64,000 nucleotides of DNA, taken from assembly GCA_016198685.1 (NCBI GenBank), contig JACQID010000008.1, positions 32,001 to 96,000 on the forward strand, written 5' to 3'. The first letter of the stretch is position 1. Every line of letters begins with the position of its first letter. The DNA is from Candidatus Aenigmatarchaeota archaeon. GTDB lineage: Archaea; Aenigmatarchaeota; Aenigmatarchaeia; GW2011-AR5. Positions 52,057 through 64,000 of the stretch are shown one piece after another. The translations under genes and the position numbers were made by a program. The notes under the pieces were generated by a model. That model searched no databases, was not told where the DNA came from, and worked only from the letters and a program-made list of their open reading frames with translations.

Positions 52057-52689
52057 ATGGCATTTCAAAGCATAGGAAGCGTTCTGACAGACTTGGCCAC
52101 AGAAACCATAACCTTTGTGCCGAACCTTGTTGGAGCAATAGTACTGCTCGTGATAGGTTTGGTTGTAGGTAAGGTTGTAGGCAGAGTCGTTAAGGAAGTC
52201 TTAAGCAAGGTAAAGCTGGACTACTATCTGACAGAAACAGAAAGGCCTGTGATAAGCATATCCAACCTATTCGCTCTCATAACACGATGGTGGATATATG
52301 TGGCCTTTATTGTAGCGGCTGTAGACACGCTGCGCATACCCTCACTTTCCGCGTGGCTTACCCAAATCCTGCACTTCCTGCCCAACGTTGTCGGAGCTAC
52401 GACAGTGATGGTCGTGGGCTACGTACTTGCTGAGTTCGTCAAGGACCAGCTGAAGAAGGTTGGAAAGTCCTATTCGTTGTTGATAGGCAAAATAACGTTC
52501 TTCTTCATCATGTACGTGGCTATTGCCGTCGCTTTGCCGATACTCCAGATACCCGCAACACTGATAAGCCAGATACTGCTGATAATAATCGCCTCGATGG
52601 GCGCTGGTATTGCAGTTGCGATGGGCCTCGGTCTGAAAGACGCATTGTCTGACGTGTCCAGAAGATACGTCAAGAAGATGAAGGTATGA
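52057..52689 (+). CDS. Membrane protein with MscS-associated TM-helix repeats
   Basis: FVPNLVGAIVLLVIG and FLPNVVGATTVMVVG repeats; GLGLKD. Confidence 0.8.
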   Translation: MAFQSIGSVLTDLATETITFVPNLVGAIVLLVIGLVVGKVVGRVVKEVLSKVKLDYYLTETERPVISISNLFALITRWWIYVAFIVAAVDTLRIPSLSAWLTQILHFLPNVVGATTVMVVGYVLAEFVKDQLKKVGKSYSLLIGKITFFFIMYVAIAVALPILQIPATLISQILLIIIASMGAGIAVAMGLGLKDALSDVSRRYVKKMKV

Positions 52690-53250: not shown

Positions 53251-53757
53251 ATGATATTTCAGAAAAAGAGCGAGATGCAGGAAATAAAAGACGCTCTTTC
53301 CCAGGATAATCCTTCTGTTCAAAAATATTATGGGCGCGAAAATTTTGCTAAAGAGGAGAATCGCCGCGCAGCTGCTCATGAGCCTGTTCGCACAGAAGAC
53401 GATGCAGTTGCTCCGCCGGTCAAAGGAAGCGCCCCGCTTTTTGTCAAGATTGATAAATACTATGATATTCTTAAGGATCTTCAGGAAATGAAAATGTTTC
53501 TGGCAGGGACAAAGCATCTTTATCATGTTCTTGAGGAAGTCGAAAACGTAAGAAACGACACGCTCAAGATAATGCGCGCAACGATACAGCGTCTTGAGAA
53601 GAGCGTTGTAGAAATGGATTCGGGGCTTCTTCGGCCAAGAGAAGATCAGTACCCAACACCTCAGGAAACGCCTGAGGTTCGCCACATAGAAGGCTCATTG
53701 AATGAGCTTCAGGGCCAGCTTGATGTTCTCAAAAAAGAATTGCAGTCCATGAAATAG
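53251..53757 (+). CDS. Hypothetical coiled-coil protein
   Basis: APLFVKIDKYYDILKDLQEMK helical domain. Confidence 0.75.
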   Translation: MIFQKKSEMQEIKDALSQDNPSVQKYYGRENFAKEENRRAAAHEPVRTEDDAVAPPVKGSAPLFVKIDKYYDILKDLQEMKMFLAGTKHLYHVLEEVENVRNDTLKIMRATIQRLEKSVVEMDSGLLRPREDQYPTPQETPEVRHIEGSLNELQGQLDVLKKELQSMK

Positions 53758-54188: not shown

Positions 54189-55187
54189 TCAAATTCCGTA
54201 TCTCAAGAAGGCGCCCACGCCCCCGAAACTGAGGAAACGCTTTCCTGCATCGTGGTGCGAATCTATTATCTTGACTCTGCCGCCGTATCTTTCAGCGAGT
54301 TTCATCAGGTCCTCATAATCCTGTGCTTTCTCGTCGCTGACAAGCAACATTTCTGCGGCTCCTGCCTCTATTGCCGCTTTGGTTTTTGCAGGGCCGTATG
54401 CGGCTTTGGTACCTTTTGAGACCTCTGCGAAAAAATCCTCAACCAGCTTTGTCTGCTCTGAGACAGAAGAGTCACGGATTATTTTTTCAACTATGCCGCG
54501 GCGCAAAACTTCCTGTATGCCGGCTTCTCCCGCATAGGAGACGCTGTCTGTGTGGACTTTCTTTGCAACTTCCGGCTCTTTGGTTTTCAGTATGTTCATC
54601 ACGTTTTCCTTGGCGAAGCCGGGCCCTGCAAGCACACATGCATGGAACTGTTTGCTCTTGATGTAGCTTATTATGTCGGCATAGTACGCAGATGAATCAT
54701 GTTCTCCCATGCTCTTGCCTGTGCTTCCGTATATTGTAGTCAGCATCTCAAGGCGCTCTGTAAGGAATGCAAAGCCTGCTTCAGCATCGTCTATAGCAGC
54801 GATAAGTATAGGCGGATGACGCGTCTTTGCTTTTTCGAGCTTTTCAATCTCGTAGCCTTTCCATTCTTTTTCTATACTTACCGGCCTGTTGACTTCTATT
54901 TCAAAAGCATGATGCGAGCGGTCACCTTCCGAGGACTCAATGATTATTCCCCCGACCCTCAATTGATCACCTGAAAAATCAATTTTTTCAGCCCGAAGCT
55001 TGACAAAAATCCTGCGCTTTTCACTTCGCACCTCGCGGTCGCCCTGAAGTATTTTTATGCTTCTGACCGTATAGCCAGAGACAGAAGTTCCTGGATTTAT
55101 TATTTTTTCCAGTACCCACAGATCATCCTGATTCTCAGGAATGACCGTGATAACGCCATGCTTGAGGTCCTTTTCCGTTATCTTCAT
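54189..55187 (-). CDS. pelA: Pelota (ribosome rescue factor)
   Basis: PENQDDLWVL, DQLRVGGII, HHAFEI, LAGPGFAK, GKRFLSFGGVGAFLRY. Confidence 0.93.
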   Translation of the reverse strand: MKITEKDLKHGVITVIPENQDDLWVLEKIINPGTSVSGYTVRSIKILQGDREVRSEKRRIFVKLRAEKIDFSGDQLRVGGIIIESSEGDRSHHAFEIEVNRPVSIEKEWKGYEIEKLEKAKTRHPPILIAAIDDAEAGFAFLTERLEMLTTIYGSTGKSMGEHDSSAYYADIISYIKSKQFHACVLAGPGFAKENVMNILKTKEPEVAKKVHTDSVSYAGEAGIQEVLRRGIVEKIIRDSSVSEQTKLVEDFFAEVSKGTKAAYGPAKTKAAIEAGAAEMLLVSDEKAQDYEDLMKLAERYGGRVKIIDSHHDAGKRFLSFGGVGAFLRYGI

Positions 55188-55248: not shown

Positions 55249-56376
55249 ATGGCTGAACTCGATACATTTACAATTTTTCTTGTTCTAGGCCTTGCCATGA
55301 TAATCGTGGGCATACTCGTATTCTCATCGGCAGAGACCTCTTTCATCGGCGGCATACTGCCCGGAAGCCAACGAACCGTAGTCAGCTCTTCTGTCGATGA
55401 ATCCTTTTCCGTGGGTCCTGAGAACGTCGAAACGGCTCTTCCTTATCGCATATCATTTAACGTGAGCAATCTTCGTGCTCCTGCAGTCCATGCCCTGGAA
55501 GACGGCCGCATATTCTCAGGCGTGCTCTTCGGATCCGGCTCGATGAAATACACGCTTGACACTAATGTCCCCCAGTTCATGACCATAAATTTCACAGTCA
55601 CCAAGACCAATTCTTATGCCCCTCTGATCATAAAAATAAACGGCAAGGAGGCGATGCGTAAACTGCTTTCGGCTGGCGATTACTCGTTTAATATTGATAA
55701 GGAATTGCTCTCTGACACGATGGAGATAGAAATAGGCGCTGAAGGGTCTGGATGGAAAATATGGGCTCCTGCAGTTTATGACCTTTCCAGCGTGCGGATA
55801 ACCGTTGATACGTTCAATGAGCGTTCTTATATCTACAAGTTCGATCTTTCCGGCAAATACGATACTTTCAAGCGCGGCAGAATAGTTCTTAATTTCATCG
55901 AAAACCGCGGCAGTCTTTCAGTGCCCCTCAATGGCGTTGAAATATTCGATGAGCCCCCTGCAAACTCACAGAACATAGAGTTCTATAAAGACCGTGTCAG
56001 GAACGGCGTCAATTCCCTGGAATTCCGCGCGTCTGAAGGTTCTTCTTTTCTTGCTAATGGCGCGATGACAATAGCCTACGTCACTACGCAAGAAAACAAG
56101 CTTGTCCAGCCCTTCAACGTCAGCAATTCGACTTATCGCAGCTTCAAGAGCGGCGAATTGCGTTTTGAGGTTACAGGAGTTTCGAAAGACGGCGGGATAG
56201 GCGTGTTGATAATGAACGGGATGGGTACGACTTTCAGCCGCTTTGAAACTGTAAGTCCCGGTGAGTACAGGTATGCTTTTAACGCAACAAACATCGCCAT
56301 GGGCAAGAACGATCTTGTCATAGAGTCCGCAGGCGGCGCGGTCTTTTCCGTGAGGAACGTCCGCATAACCGTATAA
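55249..56376 (+). CDS. Membrane-anchored beta-rich surface protein
   Basis: N-terminal TM; alternating beta pattern with internal repeats (GDYSFNI / GEYRYAF). Confidence 0.78.
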   Translation: MAELDTFTIFLVLGLAMIIVGILVFSSAETSFIGGILPGSQRTVVSSSVDESFSVGPENVETALPYRISFNVSNLRAPAVHALEDGRIFSGVLFGSGSMKYTLDTNVPQFMTINFTVTKTNSYAPLIIKINGKEAMRKLLSAGDYSFNIDKELLSDTMEIEIGAEGSGWKIWAPAVYDLSSVRITVDTFNERSYIYKFDLSGKYDTFKRGRIVLNFIENRGSLSVPLNGVEIFDEPPANSQNIEFYKDRVRNGVNSLEFRASEGSSFLANGAMTIAYVTTQENKLVQPFNVSNSTYRSFKSGELRFEVTGVSKDGGIGVLIMNGMGTTFSRFETVSPGEYRYAFNATNIAMGKNDLVIESAGGAVFSVRNVRITV

Positions 56377-56448
56377 TCTATTTATTGCGCTTTTTCCAAG
56401 TATTGCCAGAGAACCATGGAATTAGGTTTAGCTATAGCGGTGTGATGG

Positions 56449-59400
56449 ATGCCTATCAAAAATGAAGAGCGGGATAAAATAGTAAAGGATGCTCTGGCTT
56501 CCATGATAGTCGGCATAGCGCCTGCGCAGGTTTATGCCAATATAGTAACTGACATATTGGCGATATACCCAACGATGTCTCATCATGAAGTAAACGAAAT
56601 AGCATATGATATCTCCCAAGAAGTGCGCATCGAATTCCGAGTGAATCAGGGCAAGCTACGTCTCGCGGAAGAGCGTGAAGGCTGGACACAGAGTCAAATA
56701 GCGGGTCAAGGCAGGGTAATCAGAGGGCAGCGGGCAGTGGAGAACGGTCCTGTCGCACCGGCCATACGGGATTATCGTTATGCAAGGCAGGATGTAAAAA
56801 ATGCGGTTGGGGCAAGTACCGACTGGTGGAAGCGGAGGAAGGCGTCCGCTCTTTCTTTTCTTGGTGACGAGTCCGGTGCGGCACAGCAATTACGCGAAGC
56901 CGAGCAATACAGGCGACGTCGGGAGATAGACGACATGATTGACGTGTTGCGTCGGGAGATAGACGACATGAAATCGCAATTCTCCCTTCAGCCCGTTGGT
57001 GGTCGCGACCGCGAAACGTTAAAACATGATATAGACGAACGTCTGGAGAGGATAGAGAAGCTCAACGAGGAAAAGTCGAAATACTACTATACGCCGAGCG
57101 GCGCCATGCGTGCAGGTGCCCGCTCGCTCGGTCGCCCACTCATGGGCAGGGTTGCAAACGCTTCTTCCGGATGGAACCTGAACAGCGAGCAGGCCATGCA
57201 TCCGCTTGCCAGAAGCCGTGTGAACAAGGCCCGGCAGAAGTTGCGCAAAGAAGGAGACGAGATGTTCAAGGAACTTATGGAAGGTGCAGAAAAGGAAATA
57301 AGGCGGGAAGAAGAATCGTTTGAAGCGGCAAAAAAGAAATATGAGAAGGAAAAGGAAGCCGCAGCAAAATTTGTAGTCGGAACGACTGGAAATCATAGGA
57401 GTTTTTTGGATAATCTTGCTGGACATAATGACAATGAAAAATTCGGCGCGTTGCAAGGCGAAGTAAGAGCCAACATGAAGACGTCGGCGGATCGTGTATA
57501 CATAGAAAATCTCAGAGAAGCATTCACCGAGTATCAAGCTGCCAGGAAAAGTTTGGAAGACTTCCGTAAGAGCGCCTTCACACGGGACAGAACTCTTTAT
57601 GGTCTTCATCTGGTAGAAGAGAAGCTAAACAAAATAATCGGGGAACTACTTGAAGAGAACGCCCTCGGGGAAACGGATGCTGCAGGAAATTTCCATGGAA
57701 TAAAAGCGGCGGAGGAGATGCTTCACAGGGAGCGCGATATACTCATGTTCAAATACAGGGCTCGCTACCGCAACAAAGTCATGAGAGGAGTTGCAAATCT
57801 TCGCCTCTTTGCCCGAAACATGGCAATGGGCACCATGACATGGGGGGACGTGTGGCTCACGTTCTGGTACAATATCCGTGATTTCCTGTTCGGTCCGTGG
57901 ATATGGGGTAGCCTTGTTGTCATGCTTGAATGGATGCTCGTGGGCAGCTACATATCGCAGATAGCGCCTAGCGCGCTTTACTTTGTTGCGCCGATAGGAA
58001 TGGGAGGCCTTACGCTGCTTCTTAACATAGAAGGCTCAATGTCAAGGCCATGGGATTGGCTCACGCATTTTGTTTCCGGCATGCTCATAGGTTTCAGTGC
58101 CGTCATAATGGCCGTGGCCGTGATAACGCCGGAAGACATGGCGGGCTGGGACAACAGGGAATGGTTCCAGTTCTGGTTCATATGGGGCGGCGCCACGATG
58201 TTCATAGGCATATTCAGCTTTTACAATACAGGCGGCTTCCTCTTTGTATTCCAGCTCTCGGTCCTGATAATGCTGTTCGGATGGTTTGCCCTCGGACCGT
58301 ATAGAGGGGTGTATGCGGAGATCGTAGATCAGATACGGGCGCCTATCCTATTCGTCTATAATTCCTTCCGTGACGCTTTTACTGACGTATGGCTTCTAGC
58401 GACAAACCCGCAGGAATATTTCGCAAGGCAACAGCTCAAGAATGTCCGTGCGGCACAGGGCGTGAGCCTGCCTGACGGCGTAGAAATAGAAAGAATAGAC
58501 TTGCAGCCGCCAAACCCTGCACTCTCCGAGAAAGGCGGCGTCAAGCAGTCGTTCTCGGCTTCTCTTGAGATAAGAAACAAAGGAAAAGCCGATGCAAGGA
58601 ACGTGGTTGCGTGGGTTGAGTGCGACGCATTCTGCACGACGGCAACCATAGGCAACATAGATTACGTCGGCTGGCTAAAGGACATAAAGAATGCCGATAC
58701 AAGGAATCCGAACACAAAAATATCGCCTGAGTTGATAGCAGCAGCCAAGGCAGTGTCCGACAATGATCCGAAACAAGCTGAAGAATTTCTCAAAGGCTCG
58801 GGTCTCATAGAAGAAACAGTAGATAGCCCGGGGCCTTTTGTCAGGGCCGGAGGGGCCACTCTCAAGGCAGCAGCCGATGTCGCGACCGAAATAATAAAAT
58901 CGCCACAATGGATAGGGGCAAGCATAGATGCCCTTAAGGAAATCCGGGACAAGGGAAGCATGCATGCAAAGTCTCAGGCTGTGGGTTTCAAGGTCCGTGA
59001 TGCCATGCGTCCAAGCGAGGCAGCAGTGCAGACCATCACGAATATCGGCTCGCACGAAATAAGCCCTGACAGCAAGGCATATCTTTTGGTGTCTTCGCTC
59101 AAGGCTCATGTCGAATACGATTACTCGGCATCGTCAACTCTTGCGGTCAAGGTTGCGTCAAACGAGGAATACAACCAGATCCTGCGCGAAGGGCTTCTTG
59201 AAAACGTAGTTGCAAGAGGCAGCCCGACCACCGCGCAAATATCGCTAAGCGTAGGAAGGCAACCTCTGAAAGCAGGGCAGCAATATGATCTTGTCGTATC
59301 TGTAATCAACACGAGGCCCGACGGCCACGTTTATCTTGATTCCACAACGCCGATAAACATATCAATTCCTGCGTCAATGGCTACAAGTTTGTCATGCCTG

Positions 59401-59742
59401 ACTTTGGACGGCGAGTATACACCTGCTACTCCTGATACGAAAGAAGGTGCCTATAAAATATCTTACGCGCCTGGCGCAAACGTAGACATAAAGCCAAGCA
59501 AATTCTCTTCATTATTCGCGTTTACGTGCAAGTTTACAACGCCTGCCACGATAGACGCAGTAAAGACAGGTCTTATAACAGCGAAGCTTGATACATACAG
59601 GTTCAGGACAACAAAAGATATCAATGTCCGCTACTCGCCGCCGGTCGGAGTTTCCGGGCTCTTGGACAAGGGCGTAGTGATACAGGATAGCGTGACAACA
59701 ACACTGCCTTCTGCGTCTTCATCGCCGGTTGTCATCGGTTAG
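56449..59742 (+). CDS. 1097-aa membrane protein: N-terminal coiled coil, about 5-6 TMs, extracellular CARDB-like domain paralogous to downstream lipoproteins
   Basis: Charged helical N-terminal ~460 aa, hydrophobic block, LEIRNKGKADARNV, EYDYSASSTLAV, YRFRTTKDINVR. Confidence 0.85.
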   Translation: MPIKNEERDKIVKDALASMIVGIAPAQVYANIVTDILAIYPTMSHHEVNEIAYDISQEVRIEFRVNQGKLRLAEEREGWTQSQIAGQGRVIRGQRAVENGPVAPAIRDYRYARQDVKNAVGASTDWWKRRKASALSFLGDESGAAQQLREAEQYRRRREIDDMIDVLRREIDDMKSQFSLQPVGGRDRETLKHDIDERLERIEKLNEEKSKYYYTPSGAMRAGARSLGRPLMGRVANASSGWNLNSEQAMHPLARSRVNKARQKLRKEGDEMFKELMEGAEKEIRREEESFEAAKKKYEKEKEAAAKFVVGTTGNHRSFLDNLAGHNDNEKFGALQGEVRANMKTSADRVYIENLREAFTEYQAARKSLEDFRKSAFTRDRTLYGLHLVEEKLNKIIGELLEENALGETDAAGNFHGIKAAEEMLHRERDILMFKYRARYRNKVMRGVANLRLFARNMAMGTMTWGDVWLTFWYNIRDFLFGPWIWGSLVVMLEWMLVGSYISQIAPSALYFVAPIGMGGLTLLLNIEGSMSRPWDWLTHFVSGMLIGFSAVIMAVAVITPEDMAGWDNREWFQFWFIWGGATMFIGIFSFYNTGGFLFVFQLSVLIMLFGWFALGPYRGVYAEIVDQIRAPILFVYNSFRDAFTDVWLLATNPQEYFARQQLKNVRAAQGVSLPDGVEIERIDLQPPNPALSEKGGVKQSFSASLEIRNKGKADARNVVAWVECDAFCTTATIGNIDYVGWLKDIKNADTRNPNTKISPELIAAAKAVSDNDPKQAEEFLKGSGLIEETVDSPGPFVRAGGATLKAAADVATEIIKSPQWIGASIDALKEIRDKGSMHAKSQAVGFKVRDAMRPSEAAVQTITNIGSHEISPDSKAYLLVSSLKAHVEYDYSASSTLAVKVASNEEYNQILREGLLENVVARGSPTTAQISLSVGRQPLKAGQQYDLVVSVINTRPDGHVYLDSTTPINISIPASMATSLSCLTLDGEYTPATPDTKEGAYKISYAPGANVDIKPSKFSSLFAFTCKFTTPATIDAVKTGLITAKLDTYRFRTTKDINVRYSPPVGVSGLLDKGVVIQDSVTTTLPSASSSPVVIG
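56917..56971 (+). repeat. 22-bp direct repeat (33-nt period) within the CDS
   Basis: CGTCGGGAGATAGACGACATGA at 56917-56938 and 56950-56971, encoding RREIDDM twice. Confidence 0.85.
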
Positions 59743-59747
59743 AGGAA

Positions 59748-60608
59748 TTAAACGCCCATGGCGAGCCTGAAGAAATTTCTCAGTCCCGGACCCAGACCGA
59801 GGACAAGCACTATGAGCTTGAAGAGAGTTCTCTTGTTATTGTCGGCCACTTCCTTGTCTATATAATACAGGGCGGCAGGCACGACAGCGAGCTTAAGCAT
59901 GAACATGGATGCAGGGCCGAATATGGAAATGACAAAGCGCGGCAGGAAATGCTGCTCAAAGTAATCGTAGAACTGCAGGGCCGTGAATGTCGTGGAAGCG
60001 TCAAAAAGATGGGCAGATATTATCGCTGCGTTCTCCTTGGTCAGGAATTTCAATTGTGCATATTTGGGCGCAAGATACTTGTGTGTGCCGAACACTAGAA
60101 CTGCAAAGAGTGCTGCAACGGACAGCATCATGCCAACAGCGAATAAATCCTTGATATTAGGTATTAACACAGAGAGCAAAGCAAGAATAAAAACGGCTCC
60201 GATGGAAAACATGATTTTGTCATACGGGACTCGGGAAGGCTTGGAAAGAACGATGGATATTGCCAGAGCTGTGCTTGCAATAAGGAACATCGTGACATAT
60301 ATGACCGGGGACACCAAGAGCATGTTTCTTGGTCCTTCTGACGTCATGACCGTGAAAAGGCCCAAGGACATATTTTGTGATTCCAGAAGATCCTCGAAGG
60401 CCCTTAACATGGCCCCTGCGAATATATACGGCACAAGAGCAGTGAGAAGCCTCTGGTCCATGGAGATTCCACGCGATTTCAAAAGATGATAGATGCCTAT
60501 GGCCGCTGCTATGAGCATTATCCCGTAGGTTGCGGTATTCACAGGATTGTAGCCGGTATTGTAAATCACCGGATCAATGTACCATTTCTGGAAGAATTCG
60601 GAGAGCAT
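59748..60608 (-). CDS. DUF63-family membrane protein
   Basis: GYNPVNTATYG, AHLFDASTTF, YFEQHFLP, LGLGPGLRN. Confidence 0.85.
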   Translation of the reverse strand: MLSEFFQKWYIDPVIYNTGYNPVNTATYGIMLIAAAIGIYHLLKSRGISMDQRLLTALVPYIFAGAMLRAFEDLLESQNMSLGLFTVMTSEGPRNMLLVSPVIYVTMFLIASTALAISIVLSKPSRVPYDKIMFSIGAVFILALLSVLIPNIKDLFAVGMMLSVAALFAVLVFGTHKYLAPKYAQLKFLTKENAAIISAHLFDASTTFTALQFYDYFEQHFLPRFVISIFGPASMFMLKLAVVPAALYYIDKEVADNNKRTLFKLIVLVLGLGPGLRNFFRLAMGV

Positions 60609-60641
60609 AAGGTTTTTTATGCAGGGAAGATAAATAAGCCT

Positions 60642-61649
60642 ATGCTTAAAACGGGGGCATTTCTATTGCTTGTTATTCTTGCCGCCGGTTGCACGGGCCT
60701 AGGGCAGGATTTCGGCAACAACGAAATCAAGGTCAACAAGCCTGTTACAGAGGGTTCAAGCAACATAGCAGTGATCAGGGATATCAATACGATACCCACA
60801 TCTCCCGTGCTTCCAAGCGATCAAGTTGATGTTTCTTTCATAGTGGAAAATACTGACTCCCAGGAAAGTCTCAAAGGCATGACAGTGGAACTCTATGATG
60901 CTGCGAGCTTCTATAATGGGGATCCTGATGATGCGTATACAGGGCTTTGCAATATTCATGACATCTTATGCCTGCCTGAAGGCGCGTTCTGCAATGCAGA
61001 AAAATGCGAATTGAGCAATCTTGCCCCGGGAGGCCAGAAGCTCATAAATTACAAGCTTCTGGCACCGTCCGAAAGTTCGATATTGGGCCTTTCAACGGAC
61101 ATGGAACTTCGCTTTGCAGTCGAGCATGAGTTCACGGCAAAGACGACTTACAGGCCTGTCGTAGTCAATGCGGACGAGATCAAGGCGCTGCAAAGAGCAG
61201 GGCAACAAGTTTCCATTGAAGCGCCTACAAGCATCGGAAGCGGCCCTGTCAAGCTGGACGTTTCACTCAAGAACAGGGATTTCATATTGAACAGGAACAG
61301 AGCTACTTTTGAAGTGCAAGCAAGGCATGTCGGAACCGGCAGGCTTTCTGGCAATGCCATAGAGGCAGGGAAGCTGGAAGCAAGGTTCATAGGATTTACG
61401 TGCGATGAATTTGAAGAGCCGGTAGGCATCGCATTCAGAGCCAGTGCAGAAGAGAATGCCTGCAAATTCACAAATACTGAAAATATAGAGTTCTTCAGGC
61501 AGGGCTTGTCTGTGCCCATGCTGTTTGTCATGAAAGGCGTTGACATCGGGACGGTTCCGCAGAGATCATACGAGGTTGCTGCGACTGCAGATTATGCATA
61601 CAGGCTCACGGGCGTGGTGCCGATAACCGTGAAGCCCGCCGAGATATAG
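60642..61649 (+). CDS. Predicted lipoprotein, paralog 1
   Basis: MLKTGAFLLLVILAAGC lipobox-like; SFIVENT, GSGPVKLDVSL, DYAYRL; start moved to 60642. Confidence 0.82.
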   Translation: MLKTGAFLLLVILAAGCTGLGQDFGNNEIKVNKPVTEGSSNIAVIRDINTIPTSPVLPSDQVDVSFIVENTDSQESLKGMTVELYDAASFYNGDPDDAYTGLCNIHDILCLPEGAFCNAEKCELSNLAPGGQKLINYKLLAPSESSILGLSTDMELRFAVEHEFTAKTTYRPVVVNADEIKALQRAGQQVSIEAPTSIGSGPVKLDVSLKNRDFILNRNRATFEVQARHVGTGRLSGNAIEAGKLEARFIGFTCDEFEEPVGIAFRASAEENACKFTNTENIEFFRQGLSVPMLFVMKGVDIGTVPQRSYEVAATADYAYRLTGVVPITVKPAEI

Positions 61650-61657
61650 GTGAATCG

Positions 61658-62797
61658 ATGAAGTATCTTGTCGCTGCAATACTATTTTTATGCGGCTGCG
61701 TTTCTGTCACATCGCCGCAATCAGTGAACATGCTTTCCATAGACATAGCGCCGTCCGATGTCTTTGCAGGTGGCACGGCGACTGCAACACTTGAATTCCG
61801 CAATCCGGGAGGGACTGATATACGAAATGTAAAGATGTCGATTTTCAACGCTGGCGCGCTTACGCCGCAGGAATGCGATTTTGGGACGGGTCAGGCGCTC
61901 CAAGACTTTTCGCCTCAGGGCACGCTTTCGGTTTCACGCAATCCGGACAGAGGAACCGTGATTCTCGCGGCAACAGGACGCGATGACAAGGGCGTAAGCA
62001 GGGTTGGCGTCAATTTTGATGATAGCTGGCATTATTGCTATTGCGACAGTTCAGGTTCTCCTGCATGTAGGGTCTCAAGCGGAAAAAGCTGTAGCAACGA
62101 ATGGGAAATATCGGCAAGAGACGACGCTATTTATTATATCAGCGTGCTTGACAAGATAGGGCAGAGCAGCGATGCCAGCCACCCGATAACAGAAGGTACA
62201 AGCGTCACGCCATCCGGAACTCAGGATATCATCATAGACAATGTTGAGGCTGGCTCTTTCGCCATAAGGACATGCTCGCTAAAGGCGCCTGAGAAAATAG
62301 AAAACGATGTGATAAGCACGACGGTTGAAGGCAATGCCAAATTTTCCAGCACACTCTCGGGTAGCCAGGCAGTCTCGATCATCAGCGAAGAGGAATACCG
62401 GATAAGGCAAGCCAAAGATGAAGTGATTCAGTCCGCCCCTGTGCTTACGGCATCAGACGGCCGTCTTCAGCTAATGGTTAGCTTCAGCGAGGCGATGCCC
62501 GTCATAGCACGCCCGGGCAAGAAAGCTTACATATATATTGATATTTCTAATGTAGGAGGGGGCAGGATTCCGTCATTAGAAAAAGGAAGCATAACGTTGC
62601 AGGAATCCGGAGAACAGATAGTAGACAAAAGTTGCCTGGATCAGAAGTTCTACATACAAGGCGCAACATTTCCGAAGATAGCGTGCGAAATCAATTTGCC
62701 CGATAATATAAACTATTTAGAAGCCCACTCCATAATACTAAGCATAGATTACGATTATGAAATTCGTGCGTCAAAAGATGTGCAAGTAAGAAGGTGA
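61658..62797 (+). CDS. Predicted lipoprotein, paralog 2 (with an inserted Cys-containing Ig-like module)
   Basis: MKYLVAAILFLCGC; LEFRNPGG, ISNVGGG, DYDYEIRASKDVQV. Confidence 0.82.
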   Translation: MKYLVAAILFLCGCVSVTSPQSVNMLSIDIAPSDVFAGGTATATLEFRNPGGTDIRNVKMSIFNAGALTPQECDFGTGQALQDFSPQGTLSVSRNPDRGTVILAATGRDDKGVSRVGVNFDDSWHYCYCDSSGSPACRVSSGKSCSNEWEISARDDAIYYISVLDKIGQSSDASHPITEGTSVTPSGTQDIIIDNVEAGSFAIRTCSLKAPEKIENDVISTTVEGNAKFSSTLSGSQAVSIISEEEYRIRQAKDEVIQSAPVLTASDGRLQLMVSFSEAMPVIARPGKKAYIYIDISNVGGGRIPSLEKGSITLQESGEQIVDKSCLDQKFYIQGATFPKIACEINLPDNINYLEAHSIILSIDYDYEIRASKDVQVRR

Positions 62798-62801
62798 ATA
62801 T

Positions 62802-63797
62802 ATGTCTGCGATCAGGAGTCTATGTTTCATTATCATGGTTATTCTTGCGGCAGGATGCACGGCAAGTGCGCGTCCTGTTACAGTCTCTGCCAGCGACGGC
62901 CTCCAGATAAATGATTTTTCTGCCGATACGACAGATGTATTTTCGAATGAGGCCGTGAGGCTCAATCTGGAAGTCGAGAATATAGGCGGGACAACGGCGC
63001 AGAATATCAATGCCGTGCTGTTCGGAAGCGTAAGATCGTGGGAAAATGTGCCTTCAGGAGCGCAGAAGCTTGCAGATGCCATGACGCCGCCTCTTCTAGG
63101 ATCAGGCTCGCCGGGCGACATGAGCAAGCGCATATGGACCATGACCGCTCCTTACCTGCCTCAAGGCCTTTCGCAGGACTATCCTATCGGCGTGAGGGTA
63201 GGATATGACTATACTACTACATCAATAACGTCATTTGATGTCATAAATTATGACCAGTTTGATCTTCTAAGAAAGAAGGGCGAATTCGCCCAGATGGACA
63301 GCGTATCAGGCAACTCAAATGCTCCGGTGAAGGTGCAACTCACCGCTTCTTCGCCGATGAGGCCGCGCATCAGGTGCGCTGAAGATGCCTTGAATTGCAT
63401 ATCAGAAACAGTGACGCTTACATTGTCAAACGTTGGCTCCGGCGTGCCATTCAAGAAAGGCTCTAATCTTGAGGATCCCGTATCCGATGATATAGGCGTC
63501 GTGATGCTGGGAATAAGGTCAAGCGGAGGCCATCTGGAATGCGATACAGGCGTGAAGCGTGAGGATTCGGAGGAGACGACTAAAATCACGTCTTCAGGGC
63601 TGGATGTCATGCCTGAGAAAAAAGAACTCAAGCTCACAAGAGGCTTCGGCTCAGTGAGAATACCATGCACATTTCTGATGAAAGGCAGCGAGGTAACATC
63701 AGGAGTGCCCAAAGATACTATCACTGTTGAGATAGTTGCGGATTACTCTTATGCGATAGACAAGACGTTGAACGTAAAAGTCACGAGCAACGAGTAG
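62802..63797 (+). CDS. Predicted lipoprotein, paralog 3
   Basis: IIMVILAAGC; LEVENIGG, GYDYTTTS, NAPVKVQL, LSNVGSG, DYSYAIDKTLNV. Confidence 0.82.
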   Translation: MSAIRSLCFIIMVILAAGCTASARPVTVSASDGLQINDFSADTTDVFSNEAVRLNLEVENIGGTTAQNINAVLFGSVRSWENVPSGAQKLADAMTPPLLGSGSPGDMSKRIWTMTAPYLPQGLSQDYPIGVRVGYDYTTTSITSFDVINYDQFDLLRKKGEFAQMDSVSGNSNAPVKVQLTASSPMRPRIRCAEDALNCISETVTLTLSNVGSGVPFKKGSNLEDPVSDDIGVVMLGIRSSGGHLECDTGVKREDSEETTKITSSGLDVMPEKKELKLTRGFGSVRIPCTFLMKGSEVTSGVPKDTITVEIVADYSYAIDKTLNVKVTSNE

Positions 63798-63839
63798 ATC
63801 TGGGAACCTATATATACAACTTCCATACAAATCTTGAAA

Positions 63840-64000
63840 ATGCACAAACCATTTGCTTTCTTTTTGTTTGCAATCCTGGTATTGGGATGCGTTTCTTCGC
63901 AGGAATCTTCCGGAGGCTACTTGACATGGTCCAATGCAGATTATGGAGTGTCGATGCAATATCCTGCCGACTGGACCGCAAATGAAGATTCTCAATCTGT
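63840..64000 (+). CDS. Predicted lipoprotein, PsbP/DcrB-like (partial)
   Basis: Manual translation MHKPFAFFLFAILVLGCVSSQESSGGYLTWSNADYGVSMQYPADWT... Confidence 0.7.
   Translation, partial: MHKPFAFFLFAILVLGCVSSQESSGGYLTWSNADYGVSMQYPADWTANEDSQS

What the first reader, a model, noticed from the sequence alone, without database searches (positions are those of the whole stretch)
55249..64000. Candidate undescribed envelope complex: giant membrane protein and tandem lipoproteins sharing one paralogous domain
Seen by eye: the extracellular part of the 1097-aa protein and three lipoproteins share ordered motifs. These are a CARDB-like start (LEIRNKG / FIVENT / LEFRNPG / LEVENIG), a central strand (YDYSASSTLAV / HEFTAKTTYRP / KFSSTLSGSQAV / YDYTTTSITSF), a hairpin (TAQISLSV / GPVKLDVS / GRLQLMVS / APVKVQLT), an N-x-G-x-G turn in two of them, a late Cys in three, and a terminal strand (YRFRTTKDINV / YAYRLTGVVPI / YDYEIRASKDV / YSYAIDKTLNV). 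The giant adds a ~460-aa cytoplasmic coiled coil and 5-6 TMs. A beta-rich anchored protein, DUF63 and a fourth lipoprotein complete the locus. Inference: a hetero-oligomeric, membrane-spanning apparatus for host contact, transport or S-layer-like lattice formation.
Basis: partly seen in the sequence, partly recalled or inferred. Interest (0 to 1): 0.8.

Follow-up and report, generated by a model that had tools for sequence, protein, structure and literature searches.

The report
AliA-linked lipoprotein array with giant anchor
A tiny Aenigmatarchaeota archaeon has a conserved surface-protein gene cluster built around its only candidate lipoprotein-lipidating enzyme (AliA/DUF63): several related lipoproteins and a 1097-residue membrane protein share one outer two-domain module, and in relatives that large protein ends in enzymes that cut bacterial cell wall.

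Summary
The extracellular part of the 1097-aa protein (B1097) and lipoproteins D, E and F share one ~280-column module. A fifth copy, H492, lies beyond the window. AlphaFold models show two CARDB/MG-like beta-sandwiches with no specific solved relative.

1. The DUF63 gene is the genome's only AliA-type gene, the candidate archaeal lipoprotein lipidation enzyme. It is transcribed divergently from the lipoprotein operon across a 33-bp spacer.
2. In a 201-genome phylum sample the lipoprotein module, DUF63 and the A375 family are each found in 182-193 genomes. The core order is A, AliA, lipoprotein(s). The giant protein is in 103 genomes, single copy, usually between A and AliA.
3. At least 13 of 29 giant homologs carry C-terminal murein hydrolase domains (SLT, M23, amidase, VanY, glucosaminidase). 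The window's clade has lost them.

Best reading: a lineage-specific lipid-anchored surface assembly with a membrane-spanning hub that displays wall-degrading heads in relatives. Physical assembly and function remain inferred. The scan noted this stretch only in overlapping windows of the same genome, not on other DNA.

The parts
55249..56376 (+). A375: N-terminally TM-anchored (aa 7-25), beta-rich, cysteine-free extracellular protein. It is a core member of the cluster.
   Evidence: ORF and TM segment. No significant Pfam, NCBIfam or PHROG match. Not related to the lipoprotein module. The family is found in 185/201 phylum genomes, mostly as a single copy. It lies directly upstream of the giant gene, or directly convergent with DUF63 where no giant was found.
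56449..59742 (+). B1097: giant polytopic membrane protein, single copy, the hub of the cluster.
   Evidence: ORF. Homologs 41-80% identical, plus distant ones with hydrolase tails. TM-block profile found in 103/201 genomes, one copy each. 202 clusters at E<=1e-30 in 1.84 billion proteins. AF2 model has pLDDT 78.
56449..57885 (+). B1097 aa 1-479: cytoplasmic, all-helical, highly charged N-terminal region.
   Evidence: AF2 secondary structure. 79 K+R and 72 D+E, with no signal peptide or TM segment ahead of the core block in family- and order-level homologs. One relative has a DnaJ J-domain here (L018). PDB sequence search gives only coiled-coil noise.
57886..58293 (+). B1097 aa 480-615: block of five hydrophobic helices with conserved GPW, P-x-D...TH..SG, FY..GGF and LGPY motifs.
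   Evidence: Hydropathy, AF2 pLDDT about 90, alignment A4. No structural match found, but the block could not be searched on its own.
58294..58443 (+). B1097 aa 616-665: juxtamembrane helices carrying the most conserved motif of the family (DVWLL-TNP-E-Y-A-QQ..NV.PE, with P654 invariant).
   Evidence: Alignments A1, A3 and A4 and AF2 helices 619-664.
58444..59637 (+). B1097 aa 666-1063: extracellular two-beta-sandwich module paralogous to lipoproteins D, E, F and H. It includes a variable, low-confidence helical insert at aa 726-846 and conserved Cys 725/729 and 983/1027.
   Evidence: hhalign, motif columns, and AF2 strand order that matches F331 element by element. The list of single-domain fold matches largely overlaps F331's.
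59748..60608 (-). DUF63 = AliA-type membrane protein, the candidate lipoprotein lipidation enzyme. It is the only copy in the genome.
   Evidence: PF01889 at 2.5e-65. Single copy. Haloferax AliA is HVO_2859 (PMC12462473), and HVO_2859 is listed as a DUF63 family protein (PMC9426492). Invariant R69, R277 and R281. Present in 182/201 phylum genomes.
60609..60641 (.). 33-bp divergent intergenic spacer between the AliA start and the corrected start of lipoprotein D. It has T/A-rich boxes facing both ways.
   Evidence: Sequence read directly. That it acts as a promoter is inferred.
60642..61649 (+). Lipoprotein D (335 aa from the corrected start, lipobox AAGC): module copy, D orthogroup.
61658..62797 (+). 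Lipoprotein E379 (lipobox LCGC): module copy, E orthogroup, about 100 aa longer than its orthologs.
62802..63797 (+). Lipoprotein F331 (lipobox AAGC): module copy, F orthogroup. Modelled as two beta-sandwiches, aa 34-147 and 169-328.
   Evidence: AF2 pLDDT 93, pTM 0.86.
63834..64000 (+). Start of lipoprotein G324 (lipobox VLGC), which runs to 64808 beyond the window. It is PsbP_2/DcrB-like, is not a module copy, and was seen only in this genome's array.
   Evidence: H492 (64867-66345, the fifth module copy) and a convergent EndoQ-like gene follow outside the window.

Best explanation
The locus is a lineage-specific cell-surface gene cluster of Aenigmatarchaeota, organised around the single AliA-type (DUF63) gene. 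The proposed mechanism has four steps.

1. Lipoproteins D, E, F and H, plus the unrelated G, are exported and carry a conserved lipobox. AliA, encoded divergently 33 bp away, attaches them to membrane lipid. The lipobox and the linkage are shown here; the lipidation step is inferred from the Haloferax work.
2. Each of these lipoproteins consists of two CARDB/MG-like beta-sandwiches. The giant protein B1097 carries the same two-domain module on the outside, joined through five TM helices to a ~480-aa helical cytoplasmic domain. The paralogy, the fold and the topology evidence are shown here.
3. There is one conserved copy each of D, E and F in a fixed order, in a tightly spaced operon (4-8 bp gaps), next to a single-copy giant that bears the same module. 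I therefore infer that the paralogous modules pack together at the cell surface into a heteromeric layer or stalk. B1097 would be its membrane-spanning hub, and the TM-anchored protein A375 a further partner.
4. The free C-terminus of the giant protein is the working end. In many relatives it carries murein hydrolases or a lectin-like domain, so the assembly there presents wall-degrading or wall-binding heads to bacterial cells. In the window's own clade the head has been lost, which would leave a structural or adhesive coat function.
For: - Paralogy.
- Fold. There are also weak recurring CARDB, DUF11 and NPCBM_assoc hits in family members.
- Lipobox conserved in nearly all D, E and F orthologs.
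- AliA identity.
- Synteny A, giant, DUF63(-), D, E, F/H across genera of the family and order.
- Phylum sample of 201 genomes: lipoprotein module in 193, DUF63 in 182, A family in 185, giant TM block in 103 as a single copy.
- DUF63 lies divergently next to a module lipoprotein, and convergently next to A, even in families where no giant was found (f12, f13, f16, f21, f26; coordinates).
- A lies directly upstream of the giant gene in most giant-positive families.
- C-terminal SLT, M23, glucosaminidase, VanY, Amidase_2 or DUF1554 tails occur in giant homologs, always after the shared module.
- Topology: a J-domain at the N-terminus of one homolog, no export signal before the TM block in family- and order-level homologs, and conserved extracellular Cys pairs.
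- About 5 of roughly 13 predicted lipobox proteins of the genome lie at this locus.
Against: - No direct evidence that the proteins bind each other. Multimer prediction, expression data and proteomics were not available.
- The lipoprotein module is found in many genomes where no giant was detected (193 vs 103 of 201), so the lipoproteins can function without it.
- The window's own giant has no hydrolase, and no SLT domain was found anywhere in the genome, so the cell-wall reading is borrowed from relatives.
- Part of the synteny may reflect general collinearity, because housekeeping neighbours (Pelota, an EndoQ-like gene, two small ORFs) are conserved too.
- The AF2 model draws residues 569-615 as one 47-residue helix. 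If that is a single span, the TM count would be even, which conflicts with N-in/C-out.
- One homolog has PKD-like repeats in the supposedly cytoplasmic N-terminal region.
Confidence: 0.5

Rival explanations
1. The lipoproteins alone form the main lipid-anchored coat of the cell (S-layer-like), with AliA as their dedicated lipidation enzyme. The giant protein is an independent surface enzyme carrier. It shares the module by descent but is not a structural partner of the lipoproteins.
For: The lipoprotein module is near-universal and multi-copy in the phylum sample (193/201 genomes, 1-11 copies), while the giant was found in only half. AliA-lipoprotein adjacency holds in lineages where no giant was found. 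The tandem Ig-like domains are consistent with a surface-coat role.
Against: No sequence or fold match to any characterised S-layer protein. Where the giant exists it stays next to the lipoprotein genes even when AliA has moved away (f19, f25). One-to-one D, E and F orthogroups in a fixed order suggest distinct non-redundant subunits, not a single lattice protein.
Confidence: 0.22
2. The paralogs are independent, diversifying adhesins or binding proteins. The array is simply the product of tandem duplication, and the AliA neighbourhood is a convenience of co-regulation, with no common assembly.
For: Tandem beta-sandwich surface proteins are commonly adhesins, and the fold matches include MSCRAMMs, integrin legs and cohesins. 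Copy number varies from 1 to 11. Extra copies and inserts occur: H492's extension and the longer E379.
Against: D, E and F are old, separately conserved orthogroups kept in the same order across an order-level span. That is not the pattern of fast-turnover adhesin arrays. The 4-8 bp gene spacing suggests co-translation of fixed partners.
Confidence: 0.15
3. The giant protein and/or A375 are lipoprotein-maturation or sorting factors that work with AliA, for example the still unknown archaeal counterpart of lipoprotein signal peptidase. On this reading they are not structural surface components.
For: A375 or the giant is the immediate convergent neighbour of AliA across the phylum. The giant's TM block has conserved polar residues (P-x-D, T-H, S-G). 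No archaeal lipoprotein signal peptidase is known (PMC12462473).
Against: AliA occurs widely in Euryarchaeota, whereas every named member of the giant family is from Aenigmatarchaeota. In f19 and f25 the giant follows the lipoproteins, not AliA. The hydrolase tails and the lipoprotein-like ectodomain point to an outward-facing role. A375 has one TM segment and a large beta-rich ectodomain, which is unlike an intramembrane protease.
Confidence: 0.08
4. The giant protein is a phage tape-measure-like or conjugation (VirB1/PrgK-like) protein carried by an integrated mobile element.
For: The layout of coiled coil, hydrophobic block, then SLT and M23 in relatives resembles tape-measure proteins and Gram-positive conjugation hydrolases. 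This resemblance is from my own knowledge.
Against: No PHROG or Pfam phage family matches. The gene is single copy, its distribution is clade-structured, and it sits at the same position between housekeeping genes across the family. No neighbouring ORF family in the 20-kb neighbourhoods was identified as phage or conjugation genes, though unclustered ORFs were not annotated. GC content is not deviant. BFVD gives only generic matches.
Confidence: 0.02

Closest known systems
AliA/AliB (arCOG02177/arCOG02178, DUF63) lipoprotein lipidation components of Haloferax volcanii and their gene neighbourhoods (PMC12462473)
   Same: The DUF63 gene matches PF01889 at 2.5e-65 and is the genome's only copy. 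It sits next to lipobox proteins, and the paper reports the same for aliB-type genes.
   Different: Here the neighbourhood is a fixed, phylum-wide cluster with one particular lipoprotein family, a TM-anchored partner (A375) and often a giant protein. None of these is described in the paper, which lists IMP-family, GldA, SpoIIM and DeoC neighbours. Enzyme activity is untested in this lineage.
Large (up to ~3000 aa) extracellular proteins with murein-like lytic transglycosylase domains in Pacearchaeota and Woesearchaeota (fam00969; Castelle et al. 2021, PMC8204110)
   Same: These are DPANN archaea, very large surface proteins, and SLT domains proposed to bind or degrade bacterial wall. 8 of 29 giant homologs here carry SLT at the extracellular end.
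   Different: It was not tested whether the two belong to one family. The window's protein has no SLT domain. The family here is defined by a 5-TM block plus a lipoprotein-like two-domain module and an AliA-linked cluster, and every named member is from Aenigmatarchaeota.
Lipid-anchored archaeal S-layer glycoproteins built from Ig-like domains (for example Haloferax volcanii; from my own knowledge)
   Same: Lipid-anchored, made of beta-sandwich domains, near-universal in the lineage, multi-copy.
   Different: No sequence or specific fold match. The anchor here is an N-terminal lipobox, not a C-terminal one. There are several distinct paralogs instead of one lattice protein. Lattice formation is untested.
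CARDB / DUF11 / NPCBM_assoc beta-sandwich domains (E-set-type) and macroglobulin (MG) domains
   Different: No match reaches a Pfam threshold, and none was found for the window's own proteins. The two-domain arrangement has no close solved counterpart (whole-chain TM about 0.2).
Membrane-anchored multi-hydrolase proteins of Gram-positive conjugation systems (PrgK/TraG type: LytM-SLT-CHAP) and phage tape-measure proteins with lytic domains (from my own knowledge)
   Same: A membrane-associated carrier that presents SLT plus M23 or amidase modules to peptidoglycan, as in relatives L018, L024 and L025.
   Different: No homology detected. This is a chromosomal, vertically inherited archaeal gene. 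The window copy has no hydrolase.

Membership tests
AliA-type DUF63 (PF01889 / arCOG02177) | Sequence match to the DUF63 model above the curated cut-off | tested here: met
   221.9 bits against a cut-off of 25, E 2.5e-65, full length. Only copy in the genome. HVO_2859 (AliA) is listed as a DUF63 family protein.
AliA-type DUF63 (PF01889 / arCOG02177) | Two conserved pocket arginines (AliA state), not histidines (AliB state) | tested here: inconclusive
   R69, R277 and R281 are invariant in 13 orthologs. The paper gives no residue numbers, so the mapping to its two positions could not be made.
AliA-type DUF63 (PF01889 / arCOG02177) | Required for lipidation of lipobox proteins | not testable with these tools
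   Needs genetics or biochemistry. Shown only in Haloferax volcanii (PMC12462473).
Lipobox lipoproteins | N-terminal hydrophobic signal ending in [L/V/I][A/S/T/V/I][G/A/S]C | tested here: met
   D has AAGC, F AAGC, H VAGC and G VLGC. E has LCGC, with an atypical -2 residue. Orthologs carry [IVA][SA]GC at residues 13-17 in nearly all cases. LPAM_1 hits appear in 3 members. SignalP was not available.
Lipobox lipoproteins | Covalent lipid on the +1 cysteine | not testable with these tools
   Needs mass spectrometry or detergent partitioning.
CARDB (PF07705) / DUF11 | Match to the family model above its threshold | tested here: not met
   No hit for any window protein. Only sub-threshold hits in 5/44 (CARDB) and 4/44 (DUF11) family members.
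CARDB (PF07705) / DUF11 | Same beta-sandwich fold | tested here: inconclusive
Characterised archaeal S-layer proteins | Sequence or fold match to a known S-layer family | tested here: inconclusive
   No Pfam or NCBIfam S-layer hit. No S-layer chain among the top 50 fold matches, but a missing weak match does not exclude one.
Characterised archaeal S-layer proteins | Forms an abundant two-dimensional lattice on the cell | not testable with these tools
   Needs cryo-ET or proteomics.
DPANN large extracellular SLT proteins (fam00969) | Extracellular lytic transglycosylase domain | tested here: not met
   None in B1097 and none found in the 93.7%-complete genome. Present in 8/29 homologs.
DPANN large extracellular SLT proteins (fam00969) | Homology to the published family | not tested
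   No fam00969 sequence was at hand.
Phage tape-measure / conjugation hydrolase proteins | Match to a phage or conjugation family, and location in a mobile element | tested here: not met
   No PHROG or Pfam match. Conserved chromosomal position among housekeeping genes and a clade-structured, single-copy distribution.

The most novel reading that the evidence does not exclude
The cluster encodes a previously undescribed archaeal cross-domain contact machine. In this reading, a lipid-anchored heteromeric stalk of paralogous two-domain proteins is built around a membrane-spanning hub, and the hub's exchangeable C-terminal head (SLT, M23, amidase, carboxypeptidase, lectin-like) breaches or grips bacterial peptidoglycan. 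This would imply that many Aenigmatarchaeota live on bacteria, not on archaea. The head-less form in this genome would mark a switch of partner or lifestyle.
Probability: 0.25. Interest if true: 0.85.

Novelty: new variant of a known kind. Interest (0 to 1): 0.68.

Why it matters
AliA was identified only recently as the first archaeal lipoprotein lipidation component, and no preferred substrates or partner proteins are known outside haloarchaea. In this phylum of tiny, uncultured, probably host-dependent archaea, the single AliA-type gene stays physically tied to one lipoprotein family and to a membrane-anchored partner. That nominates concrete substrates and partners that can be tested in Haloferax.

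The cluster takes about 11 kb of a 0.93-Mb genome, and none of its proteins except DUF63 has a described family. It probably accounts for a large share of the unknown cell surface of Aenigmatarchaeota.

The murein-hydrolase heads on the giant protein in relatives give a testable handle on an open question: who the partners of these archaea are. Archaea have no murein, so the target should be bacterial.

Tried and rejected
- Pfam, NCBIfam and PHROGs on A375, B1097, D, E and F gave nothing significant apart from DUF63 and, for G324, PsbP_2.
- A PDB sequence search with the giant-protein profile gave only coiled-coil noise.
- Foldseek (PDB and BFVD) and VIA-align on both models gave only generic single beta-sandwich matches. 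No S-layer, pilus or secretion-system structure was in the lists shown.
The Atlas gave no usable hit for it, so I make no claim that its fold is new.
- The Atlas search for A375 gave only unnamed archaeal clusters.
- An internal duplication between the two sandwich domains was tested. hhalign gives 7.6% probability, colinear but not significant.
- The prophage/tape-measure reading was rejected.
- An 85-sequence alignment failed internally and was redone with 53 sequences.
- `search for related loci` could not use the divergent alignment. With the single protein it found two loci, one named Candidatus Aenigmatarchaeota.
- I searched this genome for counterparts of the relatives' hydrolase tails. 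Only a DUF1554 module was found, on an unrelated pilin-like ORF.
- SignalP, AlphaFold-Multimer and expression data were not available.

Full report
**What is there.** The window is G000:C3:32001-96000 of a 0.93-Mb, 8-contig, 93.7%-complete genome. The closest named relatives of its proteins are Candidatus Aenigmatarchaeota MAGs. From 55249 onward the plus strand carries A375 and the 1097-aa B1097. The minus strand then carries a DUF63 gene whose stop lies 5 bp from B1097's stop. The plus strand continues with D, E379 and F331 and the start of G324. It is followed by H492 (64867-66345) and a convergent EndoQ-like gene, which closes the locus. Upstream lies a Pelota gene. The listed 387-aa D ORF overlaps DUF63. 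Orthologs place the lipobox at residues 13-17, so the real start is the ATG at 60642 (335 aa). That leaves a 33-bp T/A-rich spacer between the divergent starts of DUF63 and D. Spacings within D-E-F are 8 and 4 bp.

**Check of the observation.** Direct BLASTP among the window's proteins is only suggestive: D vs F 5e-9, and B 672-1061 vs E 17-378 at 0.003 in a tiny database. I collected orthologs from 20-kb neighbourhoods of 20 related genomes and built one alignment per protein type. The hhalign results are: B ectodomain vs D 98.8% (E 1.4e-16), vs E 97.1% (7e-11), vs F 99.0% (7e-18), and D/E/F among themselves 99.5-99.6%, over 226-291 columns each. The by-eye observation is therefore correct in detail.

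**Fold.** With a 44-sequence alignment, F331 folds at pLDDT 93 and pTM 0.86 into two beta-sandwich domains, aa 34-147 and 169-328, behind the signal peptide. With a 53-sequence alignment, B1097 folds at pLDDT 78. Its parts are:
- an all-helical N-terminal 480 residues;
- a confident helical membrane block at 483-615;
- two juxtamembrane helices;
- two sandwiches whose strand and helix order is the same as in F331, the first interrupted by a low-confidence helical insert at 726-846.

**Topology of the giant protein.** Hydropathy gives five segments between 480 and 615. No family- or order-level homolog has a signal peptide or TM segment before this block; two class-level ones have a single extra hydrophobic segment just ahead of it. 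One homolog has a DnaJ J-domain at its N-terminus, and another is annotated with a zinc ribbon. The part after the block is homologous to lipoprotein ectodomains, has two conserved cysteine pairs, and in relatives ends in murein hydrolases. Together these say N-in, C-out. Two points do not fit and are unexplained. AF2 draws 569-615 as one long helix, whereas hydropathy and the conserved FY..GGF motif suggest a hairpin. One homolog (L021) has PKD-like repeats in its N-terminal region.

**DUF63 is AliA-type.** The gene matches PF01889 at 2.5e-65 and is the only copy in the genome. The Nature Communications 2025 paper names HVO_2859 (arCOG02177) as AliA and shows that it is needed for lipoprotein lipidation. 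An independent paper lists HVO_2859 as a DUF63 family protein. The Pfam search also rings in Haloferax volcanii among the control genomes. Three arginines are invariant in this lineage's orthologs, but I could not map them to the paper's two positions. A crude lipobox scan finds about a dozen lipobox proteins in the genome, five of them at this locus.

**Conservation and the shape of the cluster.** In the 20 neighbourhoods, the order A, giant, DUF63 (opposite strand), D, E, F/H (often with a second F-like gene) recurs across genera of the family and order and in one class-level genome. D, E and F are separate orthogroups with conserved lipoboxes. In a sample of 201 genomes of the phylum:
- the lipoprotein-module profile hits 193 genomes (90 of 92 high-quality ones), with 1-11 copies, often in tandem;
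- DUF63 hits 182;
- the A375 profile hits 185, mostly as a single copy;
- a profile of the giant's TM block alone, which cannot cross-hit the lipoproteins, hits 103, one copy each, in a clade-structured pattern (for example 0 of 42 in family f16).

Comparing coordinates between these calls gives the following picture.
- Where no giant was found, A sits immediately convergent with DUF63, for example in f12, f16, f21 and f26. G084:C8 shows lipoprotein, DUF63 and A within 2.7 kb.
- In several of those genomes a module lipoprotein is divergent from DUF63: G165, G148, G101, G157, G052, G197, G084, G007 and G198.
- Where the giant is present, A lies just upstream of it on the same strand in most families.
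- DUF63 lies just beyond the giant in the window's order and in f14 and f20.
- In f19 and f25 DUF63 lies 15-80 kb from the giant where both are on one contig (in G127 it is on another contig), while the giant stays beside lipoprotein genes where their coordinates were listed (G129, G067, G077, G041, G127).
- In f14 A has moved away, but the giant and DUF63 stay together.

The simplest history is an ancestral core of A, AliA and lipoprotein(s), with the giant later inserted between A and AliA. Its ectodomain shares ancestry with the lipoproteins. Housekeeping neighbours are conserved within the family too, so family-level synteny alone proves little. The class-level recurrences carry the weight of the argument. 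These genomes are kin, so I give no statistics.

**The variable head.** At least 13 of 29 giant homologs carry peptidoglycan hydrolase domains: SLT 8, M23 3, glucosaminidase 2, SLT_3 2, VanY 1 and Amidase_2 1. Where positions were read, the domains always lie C-terminal to the shared module: SLT+M23, SLT+amidase, VanY, glucosaminidase plus a weak M15. One homolog has a DUF1554 tail instead. Database names for distant members are "transglycosylase SLT domain-containing protein" or "N-acetylmuramoyl-L-alanine amidase", all from Aenigmatarchaeota. In metagenomes the family has 202 clusters at E<=1e-30. In the window's own clade (P0009-P0015, 41-100% identity) the protein ends 12-92 residues after the module. 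No SLT domain was found anywhere in this genome. The closest published observation is the large extracellular SLT proteins noted in Pacearchaeota and Woesearchaeota. A paper on Aenigmarchaeota symbiosis does not mention lipoproteins, murein or transglycosylases.

**Reading.** Shown here:
- a shared two-sandwich module in one polytopic protein and four lipoproteins;
- conserved lipoboxes;
- an AliA-type gene at the pivot of the cluster;
- deep conservation of the cluster;
- hydrolase heads in relatives.

Inferred:
- that AliA lipidates these proteins;
- that the paralogous modules assemble with one another, with B1097 as the membrane-spanning hub and A375 as a partner;
- that the assembly presents the giant's C-terminus to bacterial cell wall in lineages that keep a head.

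For this genome the most likely role is a structural or adhesive lipid-anchored coat with a cytoplasm-linked anchor. I put 0.5 on this reading. The main rivals are a coat without the giant as a partner (0.22), independent adhesins (0.15), a lipoprotein-maturation role for A or the giant (0.08), and a mobile-element protein (0.02).

**Novelty and score.** The ingredients are known kinds: lipobox lipoproteins, AliA, Ig-like surface domains, and DPANN giant proteins with lytic domains. The conserved cluster that ties them together, the undescribed lipoprotein and A families, and the giant protein's chassis of TM block plus lipoprotein-like module are, as far as the searched literature and libraries show, undescribed. 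I rate it a new variant of a known kind, with interest 0.68. The scan had noted this stretch only in overlapping windows of the same genome.

Noticed in passing
window 60486-60641: The longest ORF for lipoprotein D starts at 60486 and overlaps DUF63 by 123 nt. Orthologs show that the real start is the ATG at 60642, so automatic annotation may over-extend this gene.
   Followed up: yes
window 63834-64808 (runs off the window; L034:9834-10808): G324 is a lipobox protein with a PsbP_2/DcrB-like N-terminal domain (2.4e-6) and an unassigned C-terminal half. It is inserted between F and H only in this genome's array, not in the 20 related neighbourhoods.
   Followed up: partly
beyond the window, 64867-66345 (L034:10867-12345): H492 is a fifth module copy with a ~160-aa C-terminal extension that contains four cysteines and matches no family. 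A second F-like lipoprotein of 364-419 aa also follows F in several relatives (L017, L018, L020, L021).
   Followed up: partly
G000:C7:19277-20386 (L035:5278-6387): A 369-aa ORF combines a weak archaeal type IV pilin N-terminus with a DUF1554 domain. The same DUF1554 module forms the C-terminal tail of the giant protein in relative L016, which suggests module exchange between surface proteins.
   Followed up: partly
L018:8200-14289 (-) and L021:6970-12054 (+): One giant homolog has a DnaJ J-domain at aa 29-77. Another has PKD/Big_13-like repeats at aa 214-499 in the region before the TM block, with no export signal. That is odd for a cytoplasmic domain.
   Followed up: partly
window 61658-62797: E379 is about 100 aa longer than its orthologs (257-292 aa in most).
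   Followed up: no
window 58624-58986 (B1097 aa 726-846): A ~120-aa helical, low-confidence insert splits the first beta-sandwich of the giant's ectodomain. It is largely missing in the distant homolog P0016, so it is variable.
   Followed up: partly
window 52057-52689, 53251-53757, 54189-55187; beyond the window 66354-67583: Two small ORF families (210 and 168 aa), Pelota and an EndoQ-like gene flank the cluster in many same-family genomes. This shows strong general collinearity, which must be discounted when family-level synteny is read as functional linkage.
   Followed up: partly
L032:9275-12763 (-), L033:9224-12970 (-): Class-level (f14) giant homologs have a longer membrane block with 6-7 hydrophobic segments plus one more just ahead of it, and large loop insertions. 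In that family the A gene lies elsewhere while DUF63 stays adjacent.
   Followed up: no
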